From NCBI GenBank assembly GCA_964016885.1, contig OZ024761.1, positions 1,054,001 to 1,118,000 on the forward strand: DNA of 64,000 nt. Reading direction: 5' to 3'. A program made the position numbers and the translations under genes. Every line of letters begins with the position of its first letter. Position 1 is the stretch's first letter. This document shows, in pieces, positions 1 to 34,362 of the stretch. The notes beneath the pieces were generated by a model. It did no database searches and had not been told where the DNA came from. It saw nothing but the letters and a program-made list of their open reading frames with translations. This DNA is from Eledone cirrhosa. Taxonomy: Eukaryota.

Positions 1-604
1 TATATATATATATATATATATATATATAGAATAGAAAATGAAAAATCAGTGATGCATCTGAACTCAATTTATTGTGTGTTACAATTGTTTCCCCGGTGGA
101 CAGCTCGAGACGTGATCATTGTGTGGATCTGTCTGATTCTGGACCCGCAGGTTTGACGGACACATATAATGGTTTCGGAGCATAGAGAATATGCTCTGAA
201 TATGCTCTGAAATTGGAAATCAATTGTAACACACAATAAATTGAGTTCAGATGCATCACTGATTTTTCGTTTTCTATTCTATCATACTCTGCTCTGTAAG
301 AGCATAGAGTGCTCAACCAGCATACCGCCTATGGAAGCATCTTAGCTACCATCAGACACACACATATATATACATATATATATATATATATATCTATATA
401 TATATATATATATAGACATACATACACATATATATATATATACATATATATATAGACATACATACATATATATATATATATATATGTATATATATATATA
501 TATATATATATATATATATATATATATATATATGTATGCATGCATGGGTGTGTGTATAATAACAGTAGGAATGATGAAAAATAGAAATAGTTTAGTTAAC
601 TTAC

Positions 605-629
605 ATCCGGAATGGTACCATACCAATAC
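605..629 (-). CDS. USH1C: Harmonin-like 25-nt micro-exon (RIGMVPFR); gene continues past the window start
   Basis: ctttccttaccaacag acceptor, gtaagt donor, phase 1 to 2. Matches HIGLIPVK after PDZ1. Confidence 0.85.
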
Positions 630-1001
630 CTGTTGGTAAGGAAAGATAGGATTTCATTAATACTGGTTGTGGTGAATAGTGGATCATGGCAGGCCTGGAA
701 CTAAACCACAACAACACACCACACCACACAACACACCACACAACAGAACACTACACAATACCACATCACAGAGCACTACACAACACTATACCACGCCATT
801 TCACACGACACAACAGCATAGAACACTACACCACAGCACACAACACCTCATAACATCACACAACACCACACCACACTACACAATAAAAACCTCACCATTT
901 CACACCACAACGCACCACACAAAACCACACAACACCACACAACATAATACCACACAACACCACCATCATCTGTGATAGATAGAAAGGAAAAAAAGATTTA
1001 A

Positions 1002-1218
1002 CCCTTTAGCATTGAAACCAGCCATATCTGGCCAGAATTCTCTCACCGCTTTCTTTTCAAACCTGTTGTAACCGGTTGTTCATACTGATGTTAAGTTATT
1101 ATTCTCAAAATAAATATCAAAATCTTGTAGATTCAATATTATGTGAGATATTATATGAGATAAAGCCTTTACCATGAAAATATGATAGTAAATATAGAGT
1201 AATGTAAATGCTAAAGGG
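1002..1218. mobile_element. piggyBac-type MITE (copies at 39692-39912, 52350-52567, 58984-59190; partial at 52075-52148)
   Basis: TTAA|CCCTTTAGCATT ... AATGCTAAAGGG|TTAA. Confidence 0.85.
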
Positions 1219-1244
1219 TTAAATATATATTTTTTTCTACTTAC

Positions 1245-1353
1245 GTTTTATCTTGAGTACAATTTCCTCAAGGTCATTAATAAGATCAATAATTTCCACA
1301 TGGAAGGCCTTGAAGATGTGAAATCCATTGATTGATATAATTTGATCACCACA
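1245..1353 (-). CDS. USH1C: Harmonin-like exon, PDZ1 (CGDQIISINGFHIFKAFHVEIIDLINDLEEIVLKIK)
   Basis: Poly-T plus aag acceptor, gtaagt donor, 109 nt, phase 0 to 1. Matches [36 protein letters not shown]. Confidence 0.9.
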
Positions 1354-30795: not shown

Positions 30796-31245
30796 ATCAT
30801 CATCATCATCATCACCGTTTTACGTCCGTTCTTCCACGCTAGCATGGGTTAGACGGGTTGTCCTGTTGTGGGCAGTGTCTGGTCGGCTGACCATGCCTTG
30901 CTCATACAGGAACTGATCTGGCTTGATTTCTACAGCTGGATGCCCTTCCTAACACCAACCTCATTTACAGTGAGTGCTGGGTGCTTTTTCGTGGCGCCTA
31001 CACGTCCACTTTACAGTGTGGGCTGGGTGCTTTTTTGCCGTGGCACCTCCACGGCCACCTTGCGGTGGGGGGGGGGGGGGCATATTGTTTATATGCTTCA
31101 GCATGTACCCATGGGAGGTCGGGTACCCTGTATTACTGCGTGACGCCAGAAGTCACGGTCGTGTGTCATTGACTTTGAGAGGTGTAGTTGGGTAAGGTCG
31201 GCTTTTATCACCTCATCCCAAGTCATCTTGGGTCTCCCCACTCCG
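30796..31245 (-). mobile_element. RTE 3' end with composite 3'UTR
   Basis: GRPKMTWDEVIKADL on the minus strand, then the ttaggaagggcatccagc domain and (ATG)n tail. Confidence 0.7.
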
Positions 31246-33254
31246 CGGGGAGACCCAAGATGATATATATAATAGTACTAATATTATAATATAATAATAG
31301 TATTAATGAGAGAAAATATACTGATTTATTGGCTGGTTTTTAGCTCAATGCAATGAGGGTTTCAAATAACAAATGAGGTCTTTTACAATATATTGTATTT
31401 CCAATCTTGGTAGTTATTTTAAAAATGGTAAGCTCAGACTGGTAGTTTCTACATTGGAACAAATAGTTCCAAAGAGTTTCTGGGAAGTCACCACAAGAAC
31501 ATAGAAGTGATTCTCTGTGACCTGTTCATAATAAAATATAGTTCAATGGTATATATCCAGTTCGAAGCCAGCATAGTCTTTTTTTTTTTTTTTGTTAACA
31601 TAAAGATATATGTCACATACTTAACCGGAGCTAAGACAAATTTGAATATACCTCTATATCATCAATTTTCTTGCCAATCAGAGTGTGTGTATGTATCATC
31701 ATCATCATCATCATCATCAATGTTTAACGTCCGTGTTCCACGCTTGCATGGGTTTGGACGGGGGTAGTCCCACTTGAGGCAAGAGTGATTGTCTTGCTCG
31801 CATAGGACTGTCTGGCAGGTTTTCTACAGTTGGATGCCCTTCCTAACACCAACCACATTTACAGTGTGGGGCTGGGAGGTTTTTACCGTGTTGCCTACAC
31901 GGCCACATTACAGCGTGGACTGTGTGTTTTTTTGTCATGACACCTACACGATCTCATTTGTTTCGGCCTGGATGGTGTGGCACCAACATAACTTTACATA
32001 GAACGGGGTGGTGTGGATGGGGTGGGGGGTAGGGGGGGGGGGGGGAGTATTTTGTTAGAGATGCCTACTGGCTGTAGTAGGTTTTACTATGTATTTAGGT
32101 AAGGCGGGTCTTCTCTGTTACTGAGTATCGCCAAAGGTCTCGGTATATATATATATATTTAATTACTTTACCTTTTCTTCGGAAATACTTAATGCACACA
32201 CACACACAAATATGTATATGTATATACATATATATATATATATATATATATATATATATATATATATATATATATATATATATATATATGTGTGTGTGTG
32301 TATATATATATAAAAACGCATAAAAAAAAAATGAGTTGATTTTAAAACGTTACTACAAGGCAAATGGAGCTATACAATATTGAAGTAAAAATACCAGAAA
32401 AGTGAAGAAGAAAGAAAAATAACAAAGAAGTCAATGTTACATTGGGATTGTTTAATAAGGAGAGACTACACCCAACTGGCTTCTATTCATTCTCGACATT
32501 CATCAGTCTCTCATAGTAACATTTCCAGACCTCTTTCTTTTGAGCATCAGTGGTATTAAGTGTAGCAGTGTCATTTCTAACACACTTTTCCACAACAAGA
32601 TCCCAATTCACGCTGAGATATCGCCTTGCAATGCAGAACACTACACGTTTCCGATCTAATCTAATCTCACATCTCAATCTAATCTAATCTAATCTGGCCG
32701 AGTTTACACTTGCAAATAAGAAGAACCAGGGTTGCCCCTGGGAGCATTGGATTTGGTGTATTTCATATTTGTTTTGGTTGCTGAATACAATCAGGGGTCG
32801 CTGCTCCTCCTGAAGGTCAATAGTTCTCTTCTAACTCAAGTGTGAGCGCCTTTCCATTGTCAATTTGTATTGATCATCTGCAAAGTCACATTGTTCTCAG
32901 AACCACTACACAAGTCGTTTGATGATGTAGCTGGAACTACTGCCACCTATTGATTTGGTTGGATATTTTTTTTTTTAGATGGCCATTGACTCTTACGAGT
33001 TCTTCTGCCCCTTGTCAGGTTTTGCACAGGTTTTGTCAGGTTTTGTCCTGCACATCTCTGGCAAACTTTCTTTTTTCAGCCTCTCTCCAAGTTGTGTATA
33101 CCTGTTGTCTATGTTCTCTCTTTGGTATCTGGTACCAGTCTCTGCTACTCTGATTTTTTCAGTCTTTCTATACCTGTCTCTTGGTTTAAATAGTCCTACC
33201 CAGTGTGTTGGTCCCCAATCAGGCCACCCTCTAGCTGGTACTTTACCATGTACC

Positions 33255-33610
33255 CAACAGAAGGACCAGCAATTAAAGTTGACAGTTATAGGGTCCAAAG
33301 AGAAATAAAGGAGATGAAGAACGGTAATGTTAAAGGTATTAGGAAAAGTAGGAGTCAAACTAGTAACCCACAGAGTTAATCTGTTAATACAGGATGGTGT
33401 CATACCCAATAACTGGTGCAGCAGTACAATCATAAATTACTACAAGGGAAAAGATGATGCTCTAGAAAGGAGCAAATATACAGGAATAAAAACTAATGGA
33501 CCAAGTTATGGAAGTGATAGAAAGTGTTATAGCACAACTAATTAGGGAAAGAGTCAAATTAGATGAGATGCAGTTTGGTTTCATGCCTGGGAAAAGTACT
33601 ACAGATACTT
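33255..33610 (+). mobile_element. Old internal RTE RT fragment (others at 32480-32650 - and 60230-60760 +)
   Basis: [32 protein letters not shown]. Confidence 0.8.
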
Positions 33611-34266
33611 TCAAATCGCTGAGACTCACAGAGGTGTGTGTATGCATGTATCCATTTATAGAAGTATATATATATGTATATATAAACATATATATAAACA
33701 TATATATATAAACATATATATATAAACATATATATGTATATAAACATATATATATATATAAACATATATATATATAAACATATATATATAAACATATATA
33801 TCATCATCATCATCATCATCGTTTAACGTCCATGTTCCACGCTTGCATGGGTTTGGACGGGAGTTTTCCCACTTGAGGCAAGAGTGGTTGTCTTGCTCGC
33901 ATAGGACTGTCTGGCGGGTTTTCTACAGCTGGATGCCCTTCCTAACACCAACCACATTTACAGTGTGGGGCTGGGAGGTTTTTACCGTGTTGCCTACACG
34001 GCCACATTACAACGTGGACTGTGTGTTTTTTTGTCGTGACACCTACACGATCTCATTTGTTTCGGCCTGGATGTTGTGGCACCAACATATATATATATAT
34101 ATATAAACATATATATAAACATATATATATATATATATATATAATTGGTGTTGGATGCTTAAAGCGTCCGTATGAGCACTCGATGCTCTCATAGAGCAGA
34201 GTATGATATCACAGAAAAAAAGAGAATCAGTGTTGCGACGAATGGAATTTATTGGACATAAATCAA

Positions 34267-34362
34267 GACGTATCTGAGGACCTTGTAATTTTCAGAGTCA
34301 TGTTCGATCATCACATCGATCGTGCCTCGATCTGGTTGCCAGAGAAACGATTGTAATATGTC
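34267..34362 (+). ncRNA. Hammerhead-like motif with branched insert (homologs at 75-164 - and 1835-1921 -)
   Basis: GACGUAU-CUGAGGA-[63 nt, several hairpins]-GAAAC gauu GUA-AUAUGUC. Confidence 0.65.

What the first reader, a model, noticed from the sequence alone, without database searches (positions are those of the whole stretch)
75..34362. Candidate new hammerhead variant with a multibranched domain, conserved in three diverged copies
Seen: 75-164(-), 1835-1921(-) and 34267-34362(+) share little primary sequence but have one layout. It runs helix I (UGUGU/ACACA, GGGU/ACCU, GACGUAU/AUAUGUC), first box (CCGUCAA, CCGUCGA, CUGAGGA), a 55-65 nt insert with a GAUC-loop-GAUC hairpin followed by U(C/U)GA and a short stem, then GAAA, a 2-bp helix III with 4-nt loop, GU(A/C), helix I', and AAUAAA. 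All three elements also share a distal CAT(C/A)GAGTGCTC motif, so they form one family. Known: Penelope-like elements carry minimal hammerheads with simple helix II. Inference: this is a branched helix II or a large insert at core position 7; two copies share a non-canonical CCGUC box. I know of no description of this layout, but I could not search.
Basis: partly seen in the sequence, partly recalled or inferred. Interest (0 to 1): 0.8.

Follow-up and report, generated by a model that had tools for sequence, protein, structure and literature searches.

The report
Long-stem, core-variant Penelope hammerhead motif
Three related repeats that are likely the tail ends of Penelope-like jumping genes in an animal genome carry a hammerhead-ribozyme layout with a roughly 60-base stem II, predicted to be one long rod, and two of them have changed the normally fixed catalytic letters CUGA to CCGU, so they would test whether such a core can still cut RNA.

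Summary
The three elements are real, homologous and far beyond chance (3 matches against 0.01 expected). They sit in (TA)n, two with an inverted tail, the layout of Penelope-like pseudo-LTRs. They keep type I hammerhead geometry: helix I, GAAA, a short palindromic helix III, GUH, then AAUAAA. The 60-63 nt insert is best read as one long rod-like helix II, not a multibranched domain or an insert at position 7: 78 of 87 cells pair and 10 of 29 pairs change on both sides. Long helix II alone is not new: canonical-core hammerheads in this window have 31-55 nt inserts, and Naiad 'half-core' cases are in print. What is unusual is the core: U4C plus A6U in two diverged families. Public contigs show that copy 3's family is large and appears to hold both a CUG and a CCG form. 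No Rfam hammerhead model hits them. Cleavage, expression and the autonomous partner are untested; the evidence rests on three copies. Verdict: new variant of a known kind, likely slow or protein-assisted, possibly dead but structurally kept.

The parts
26..356 (-). Copy 1 whole insertion: inverted full tail (215-356), spacer, core, forward partial tail ending in (TA)n
   Evidence: (arms 26-92 and 215-282, 97% over 68 nt); outer limit 356 read by eye
75..164 (-). Copy 1 hammerhead-like motif: helix I 5 bp, box CCGUCAA, 61-nt helix II, GAAA, palindromic helix III, GUA (predicted cut after 80)
68..73 (-). AAUAAA after helix I of copy 1 (inside the inverted-repeat arm)
303..314 (+). Tail motif CATAGAGTGCTC in the inverted tail of copy 1
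1687..2000 (-). Copy 2 whole insertion: 5'-truncated, core, full forward tail, (TA)n on both sides
   Evidence: limits read by eye
1835..1921 (-). Copy 2 hammerhead-like motif: helix I 4 bp, box CCGUCGA, 60-nt helix II, GAAA, helix III, GUC (predicted cut after 1839)
1723..1734 (-). Tail motif CATCGAGTGCTC about 90 nt downstream of AAUAAA in copy 2
34144..34409 (+). Copy 3 whole insertion: inverted full tail (34144-34260), core, forward partial tail to (TA)n; arms about 34210-34260 and 34357-34407
   Evidence: limits read by eye
34267..34362 (+). Copy 3 hammerhead motif with canonical core letters: helix I 7-8 bp, CUGAGGA, 63-nt helix II, GAAA, near-palindromic helix III, GUA (predicted cut after 34355)
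34293..34334 (+). Distal part of helix II in copy 3: sequence-conserved internal loop (GARUC opposite YGAGCU), 4-bp covarying stem, invariant GAUC/GAUC hairpin; equivalents at about 141-101(-) and 1899-1860(-)
34174..34185 (-). Tail motif CATCGAGTGCTC in the inverted tail of copy 3

Best explanation
These are likely the pseudo-LTR ends of a group of (TA)n-targeting Penelope-like retroelements, carrying a type I hammerhead layout whose helix II is predicted to be one long rod of about 60 nt and which would cut after GUH only slowly, as a dimer or with help from the element's protein. Shown in sequence: homology of the three copies, (TA)n flanks, inverted tails, helix I/III geometry, compensatory pairs along the rod, and the core letters. 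Inferred: the element RNA is reverse-transcribed from its tail without prior cleavage (each genomic copy spans the predicted cut site); template switching made the inverted arms of copies 1 and 3; the short palindromic helix III favours a dimer. The CUGAGGA form (copy 3) is the likeliest cutter. The CCGAGGA and CCGUCGA forms are predicted to be much weaker. The sequence-conserved internal loop and GAUC hairpin are the likely contact for helix I or for the protein. The genomic copies themselves are truncated remnants; in copies 1 and 3 a read-through transcript would pair helix I' with the inverted arm and block the fold.
For: Register fixed in advance by hammerhead numbering (A9+1 against G12-1): 7, 9 and 8 of the first 10 positions pair, shuffle p 0.016, 0.0015, 0.007 (the copies are kin, so not independent). 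Full rod: 78 of 87 cells paired, 10 of 29 pairs two-sided, permutation p 0.001 and 0.0016 (distal part hand-registered on these sequences). On A1: 7 of 19 pairs two-sided, 13/500 shuffles as high, slid controls at most 2. The rod has a lower energy than the three-hairpin and locked folds in 3 of 3 copies; 2152 contigs of run X1 laid on copy 3; majority G34301 restores a G-C pair in the distal stem; majority G34331 makes the YGAGCUG of copies 1 and 2; no other letter at 3% or more is listed for 34342-34362 (GAAA to helix I'). A pyrimidine mismatch at helix II position 4 occurs in copies 1 and 3 and in 4 of 4 canonical-core long-helix hammerheads examined in the window. The best non-self hits of a covariance model of the three copies are canonical hammerheads at 18765 and 17655, though not significant (E 0.13, 0.24). 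Helix III octamers are self-complementary in copies 1 and 3. Inverted truncated copy, tail and (TA)n preference are PLE hallmarks (PMC8557442); PLE hammerheads are slow, dimeric or protein-assisted, and uncleaved RNA is the main insertion template (PMC4209133, PMC11167929).
Against: Only three full copies; no genome was held. The hammerhead fold is 5-18 kcal/mol above the minimum-energy fold in each copy, pair probabilities for the helix II ladder are at most 0.03, and fold z-scores are only -0.6 to -1.5. Slid registers reach 7 of 10 in copy 1 (-1) and 8 of 10 in copy 2 (-3). One two-sided change (position 7) rests on the private T34337 of the window copy. RNAalifold prefers a different fold in which box 1 pairs with the YRG before GAAA. 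All single and double changes of the CUGA turn except the C3-G8 swap gave low activity in a full mutational scan (PMC9901934). Copy 1 also has G8A; copy 2's helix III palindrome has 2 mismatches of 8. No reading frame is attached to any copy, so the PLE clade is unknown.
Confidence: 0.5

Rival explanations
1. Pseudo-ribozyme: the CCG families no longer cut. Box 1 (CYG) pairs with the YRG just before GAAA, locking the core, and the fold is kept because the element's reverse transcriptase recognises it.
For: RNAalifold gives C-G, C-G, U-A at box position 4 against column 89, a two-sided change that would explain U4C. U4C and A6 changes lower activity strongly (PMC3088659, PMC7151607, PMC9901934). 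Cleavage was not needed for insertion in vitro (PMC11167929). A possibly related family at 1616(+)/48702(-) aligns to the distal rod but has no GAAA (3 of 6 comparisons p<0.01).
Against: The locked fold has a higher energy than the rod in 3 of 3 copies. In the CCG form of family 3 the partner would be A34341 (about 96% of depth; the listed variant is C, not G), a C-A mismatch, though phase is not shown. C3, G5, A9, G12, A13, A14, A15.1-U16.1 and H17 are kept in 3 of 3 copies.
Confidence: 0.3
2. One reading: a branched domain, or a large insert at core position 7, with G8A9 supplied by the distal YGA and a short local helix II.
For: 93% of cells pair on A1; the YGA-13 nt-GAAA spacing is gap-free in 3 of 3 copies; copy 3's minimum-energy fold holds this local hairpin.
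Against: Only 1 two-sided change outside helix I, resting on a letter that 99% of the family's laid depth lacks. Higher energy than the rod in 3 of 3 copies. Box 1 already has its own G8A9 in copies 2 and 3. Eckert et al. 2023 (PMC10085705) state that no known hammerhead alignment has more than 1-2 nt between CUGAnGA and its adjacent stems.
Confidence: 0.1
3. Neutral decay: one old hammerhead lineage whose copies drifted; the apparent covariation comes from CpG decay, fold-back templating and my choice of registers.
For: Differences between the window's copy 3 and the CCG form are CpG-type changes; three sequences give weak statistics; z-scores are not significant.
Against: G-C against C-G at rod position 5 and U-A against G-C in helix I are double transversions that CpG decay cannot make; family-majority letters improve pairing or conservation at 34301 and 34331.
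Confidence: 0.07

Closest known systems
Minimal type I hammerheads in Penelope-like pseudo-LTRs (Cervera and de la Pena 2014, PMC4209133; Hydra-clade table in PMC8557442 File S2)
   Same: Type I order, short palindromic helix III, short helix I, loose first position of helix II, dispersed truncated copies, opposite-strand pairs.
   Different: Helix II there is up to 7-8 bp with canonical CUGANGA (or the U3-A8 swap); here the insert is 60-63 nt with conserved internal loops, and the box is CCGUC(G/A)A or CCGAGGA in most forms.
Naiad 'HHR_half_core' cases (Craig et al. 2021, PMC8557442), including Naiad_Ovul and Naiad_Esco
   Same: Core halves 35-50 nt apart in the 3' region of (TA)n-targeting PLEs of cephalopods and other animals.
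   Different: Those were found by a canonical CUGANGA string and not folded or tested. The 3' ends of the five cephalopod Naiad consensus sequences seen lack the GAUC hairpin and the tail motif; the 8-mer GAGTGCTC has 3 hits in the whole supplement, none at a cephalopod 3' end (hits across line breaks would be missed).
Natural hammerhead core variants U4C (viroid) and A6C (phage Bcep176) (PMC3088659, PMC7151607)
   Same: Single natural changes at positions 4 and 6 that keep reduced activity; A6C cleaves better with Mn2+.
   Different: Here U4C and A6U occur together, in two diverged animal retroelement families; I found no such double variant in the passages read.
Poseidon element of Anolis (Frangieh et al. 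2024, PMC11167929)
   Same: Hammerhead upstream of the tail where reverse transcription starts; uncleaved RNA is inserted.
   Different: Canonical core and short helix II; protein-assisted cleavage is shown there and untested here.
Animal non-LTR retrozymes (bioRxiv 10.64898/2026.07.22.740005)
   Same: Non-coding PLE-derived repeats with type I hammerheads.
   Different: Retrozymes are head-to-tail tandem units; these three are single truncated insertions with inverted tails.

Membership tests
Hammerhead ribozyme, type I | Three helices around the core in order I-box-II-GAAA-III-UH-I | tested here: met
   3 of 3 copies; helix I 4-8 bp with 3 of 5 pairs two-sided
Hammerhead ribozyme, type I | Box C3 U4 G5 A6 N7 G8 A9 | tested here: not met
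   Met only in copy 3 (1 of 3). Copy 2 has U4C and A6U; copy 1 also G8A; part of family 3 has U4C
Hammerhead ribozyme, type I | G12 A13 A14, A15.1-U16.1 pair, H17 | tested here: met
   3 of 3 copies; no variant at 3% or more listed for these places in run X1
Hammerhead ribozyme, type I | G10.1-C11.1 closing pair | tested here: not met
   G-C in copy 2 only; A-G and C-A in copies 1 and 3. Many Hydra-clade PLE hammerheads also have a U-U-type position there
Hammerhead ribozyme, type I | Match to an Rfam hammerhead model | tested here: not met
   No hammerhead hit on any copy up to E 10; the whole-window scan found only the short canonical one at 2926-2970
Hammerhead ribozyme, type I | Site-specific self-cleavage after H17 | not testable with these tools
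   needs in vitro assay
Penelope-like element pseudo-LTR | Inverted truncated copy plus tail extension at one end; insertion in (TA)n | tested here: met
   Copies 1 and 3 have inverted arms with a longer tail; all three are flanked by (TA)n; criteria from PMC8557442
Penelope-like element pseudo-LTR | Short palindromic helix III suited to dimers | tested here: inconclusive
   8 of 8 self-pairs in copies 1 and 3, 6 of 8 in copy 2
Penelope-like element pseudo-LTR | Linked RT plus GIY-YIG reading frame | tested here: inconclusive
   No frame adjoins the copies; no genome to look for full-length members
Naiad clade | Similarity to published cephalopod Naiad 3' ends | tested here: not met
   Seen by eye and by motif search of the supplement; other Naiad families are not excluded
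Non-LTR retrozyme | Head-to-tail tandem units each with a hammerhead | tested here: not met
   Single dispersed copies; only 3 strong model hits in 64 kb

The most novel reading that the evidence does not exclude
An active hammerhead class with a rewritten uridine turn: CCGUCGA cleaves at a useful rate because the conserved 60-nt helix II domain (internal loop GARUC/YGAGCU plus GAUC hairpin), or the retroelement protein bound to it, supplies contacts that rescue U4C and A6U. Families of these elements would then have been missed by every CUGANGA-based search, and some 'ribozyme-less' Penelope-like elements would carry hidden ribozymes.
Probability: 0.15. Interest if true: 0.8.

Novelty: new variant of a known kind. 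Interest (0 to 1): 0.45.

Why it matters
The CUGA turn is treated as fixed, and searches for hammerheads depend on it. Here is a natural series within one retroelement lineage: CUGAGGA, CCGAGGA, CCGUCGA, and possibly a relative without GAAA, all on a shared long stem. It lets one test directly what Penelope-like hammerheads are for. If the CCG forms cut, the core rule has a structural rescue and many ribozymes are being missed. If they do not, the fold is being kept without catalysis, which points to a protein-recognition role and fits the finding that cleavage is not needed for insertion.

Tried and rejected
No genome was held, so no genome-wide collection. Pattern scans of public collections found no relatives: viral contigs 0 loci; metagenome contigs 8 loci and prokaryote genomes 5 loci, none with the full layout by eye and none above E 0.13 with the covariance model; these collections hold little animal DNA, so this is no evidence of a narrow range. 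Sequencing-run search: no RNA holder listed. Runs X6 and X7 held only 3 contigs each and are used only as hints. Rfam: no hammerhead, twister, pistol, hatchet or HDV-like hit on the three copies; the MIR2599 hit is the inverted repeat, far below its gathering score. Non-circular permutation (PMC10085705) rejected: block order is the ordinary type I. Pfam found nothing in 6 of 6 candidate frames. No fourth full copy in the window by BLAST, nhmmer or covariance model. My first descriptor missed hammerheads with a mismatch at the base of helix II, corrected. Six of seven answered look-ups in earlier scan notes were empty. Lunse et al. 2017 and Arkhipova et al. 2017 were not held; their alignments may already contain long-stem or core-variant cases. 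I did not fold a family-majority version of copy 3; the effect of majority letters was worked out by hand.
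Full report
Setting. The window is animal DNA rich in (TA)n, with RTE-type LINE frames and Penelope-like remnants. It looks like an octopus genome: this rests on a SINE that I recall from memory and on the only named protein hit of a neighbouring frame, an Octopus bimaculoides protein at 51% identity (1 of 15 hits named). 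The host is therefore a likely, not a settled, assignment. No genome was held.

Observation. All three elements are present as described. They are homologous: mean column identity 74%, pairwise shuffle p at most 0.0003. The tail 12-mer and the core pattern each have 3 matches against 0.01 expected, and the joint layout occurs in 0 of 200 shuffles. The patterns were drawn from the copies, so this shows kinship only. BLAST, nhmmer and a covariance model find no fourth full copy.

Anatomy. Copies 1 and 3 read: (TA)n, inverted full tail, core, forward partial tail, (TA)n (arms 26-92/215-282; about 34210-34260/34357-34407). Copy 2 is a 5'-truncated forward copy with its whole tail between (TA)n runs. 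An inverted truncated copy, a tail at one end and (TA)n targets are the layout described for Penelope-like elements (PMC8557442, passages). The arms begin 8 nt before the predicted cut in copy 1 and 1 nt after it in copy 3, so no fixed link to the cut site; all copies span the site, so the template was uncleaved RNA, as found for the Anolis element (PMC11167929). A looser tail motif (GAGYRCY after a CTCTG-like stretch) is shared by several other families in the window, including 49785/51110, which has a canonical core. No reading frame adjoins the three copies, so their clade is unknown.

The insert. I compared three folds. (A) Rod: counting from A9+1 and from G12-1, with no free register, 7, 9 and 8 of the first 10 positions pair (p 0.016, 0.0015, 0.007). 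Continued through a sequence-conserved internal loop, a 4-bp stem and the GAUC/GAUC hairpin, 78 of 87 cells pair and 10 of 29 pairs change on both sides (permutation p 0.001, 0.0016). The distal registers were set by hand on these sequences, and one two-sided change rests on a private letter of copy 3. On the MAFFT alignment the tool counts 7 of 19 two-sided pairs, 4 of them in helix II, 13/500 shuffles as high. Energies rank A below B and C in 3 of 3 copies. Against all of them: minimum-energy folds differ from copy to copy, lie 5-18 kcal/mol lower, ladder pair probabilities are at most 0.03, z-scores are -0.6 to -1.5, and slid registers reach 7 of 10 and 8 of 10 in copies 1 and 2.

Family evidence. 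Laying four public runs on copy 3 (4 of 12 listed) placed 2152 contigs in X1 and 9, 3 and 3 in X4, X6, X7; summed depth in X1 reaches 2.2e5. The tool warns that this is no copy number, but the family is plainly large. Majority letters differ from the window at 34301 (G, 98%: restores a G-C pair in the distal stem), 34331 (G, 99%: gives the YGAGCUG of copies 1 and 2 and removes the pair that favoured fold B), 34337 (C, 97%) and 34363 (C, 59%). No other letter at 3% or more is listed for 34342-34362. A loose end at 34290 in 37 contigs (agreement 0.79) reads the box as CCGAGGA followed by CCUUGCGA; with the majority 3' letters this gives 7 of 9 ladder pairs (by hand; phase not shown). No T-to-C row is listed at 34275 although depth there is about 2e4 and an X4 contig spans 34262-34362 without gaps, so I infer that a CUG form also exists as a subfamily; with C34337 it would have an A-C mismatch at position 7. 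With CCG in copies 1, 2 and part of family 3, parsimony favours CCG as the older state and CUG as a reversion by CpG decay, but three families cannot settle this. G8A in copy 1 is also a CpG-type change and may be private.

What is and is not new. Long helix II is not unique: hammerheads with canonical boxes at 18782, 44436, 51110 and 49785 have 32, 31, 45 and 55 nt inserts and a pyrimidine mismatch at position 4, as copies 1 and 3 do. Craig et al. list eight Naiads with core halves 35-50 nt apart; two such 3' ends were visible. The published cephalopod Naiad ends do not match this family. What I could not find in print is the conserved distal domain and the CCG box, with U4C and A6U together. 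Nine literature searches gave no description; two key papers (Lunse 2017, Arkhipova 2017) were not held, and supplements other than that of PMC8557442 were not read. Single variants U4C and A6C are natural and slow (PMC3088659; PMC7151607); a full double-mutant scan found no rescue in the CUGA turn but the C3-G8 swap (PMC9901934). Rfam has no hammerhead hit on the copies.

Mechanism. Most likely (0.5) a PLE pseudo-LTR hammerhead with a long rod helix II that cuts slowly, as a dimer or with protein help, the CCG forms more weakly still. Next (0.3) a dead but kept fold used in RNA recognition; a possibly related family at 1616(+)/48702(-) that aligns to the distal rod but lacks GAAA (3 of 6 comparisons p<0.01, scoring chosen ad hoc) would be the end point of that path. 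That the motif is hammerhead-derived and PLE-borne I put at about 0.9. No cleavage, expression or binding was tested.

Papers seen: PMC8557442 passages, supplement parts 1-2 of 59 and three motif searches; PMC4209133 parts 1-2 of 4; PMC11167929 parts 1-2 of 4; PMC10085705 outline and part 3 of 8; bioRxiv 10.64898/2026.07.22.740005 parts 1-2 of 5; passages only for PMC3088659, PMC7151607, PMC9901934, PMC11014351, PMC6765202. Hammerhead numbering and the reading of the 8496-9470 frame as a GIY-YIG-type PLE end are from my own knowledge.

Verdict: real, new variant of a known kind; interest 0.45.

Noticed in passing
window 49778-49865(+), 51105-51180(+), partial 49456(-): Two tandem pseudo-LTRs about 1.3 kb apart with a canonical CUGANGA box, a 55- and 45-nt rod-like helix II, GAAA, palindromic helix III and 5-7 bp helix I; same kind of tail motif. 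Not hit by Rfam. A natural canonical-core control for the long stem.
   Followed up: partly
window 1616-1667(+) and 48650-48830: Family starting at the same base in both copies, with inverted-tail layout and the tail motif; aligns to the distal rod of copies 1 and 2 but has no GAAA, helix III or AAUAAA; holds a short direct repeat that allows two folds.
   Followed up: partly
window 18782(+)/17638(-), 44436(+)/44212(-), 2964(-), 8233(-), 10660(+), 22893(+), 58184(-), 11091(-), 47192(+)/47003(-): Many further minimal hammerhead-like motifs, often as opposite-strand pairs; Rfam found only 2926-2970 (E 0.005, below gathering score).
   Followed up: partly
window 8496-9470(-) and 9731-10313(+): Two diverged PLE-like C-terminal frames (53% identical) in opposite orientation, each followed by a hammerhead-like motif; 15 homologs found, none with a Pfam domain on record.
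   Followed up: partly
window 35240-38680(+): Open 1146-residue frame of an RTE-type LINE (endonuclease plus RT, by recall), with several broken copies elsewhere in the window.
   Followed up: no
window 46750-47283 and 48470-48630: Tandem and inverted short elements with a canonical CUGAUGA box but poorly formed helices, sharing the tail motif.
   Followed up: no
PMC8557442 supplement, 3' ends of Naiad_Obim and Naiad_Ovul: A CUGUUGA box (A6U) about 33 nt upstream of a GAAA, beside the canonical box; possibly another position-6 variant. Absent from this window.
   Followed up: partly
L001:1339-1377(-) and L006:623-661(+): Two identical metagenome hits of a repeat with CCGTCAA 14 nt upstream of the matched pattern; no GAUC hairpin, model E above 0.5; taken as chance.
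   Followed up: partly
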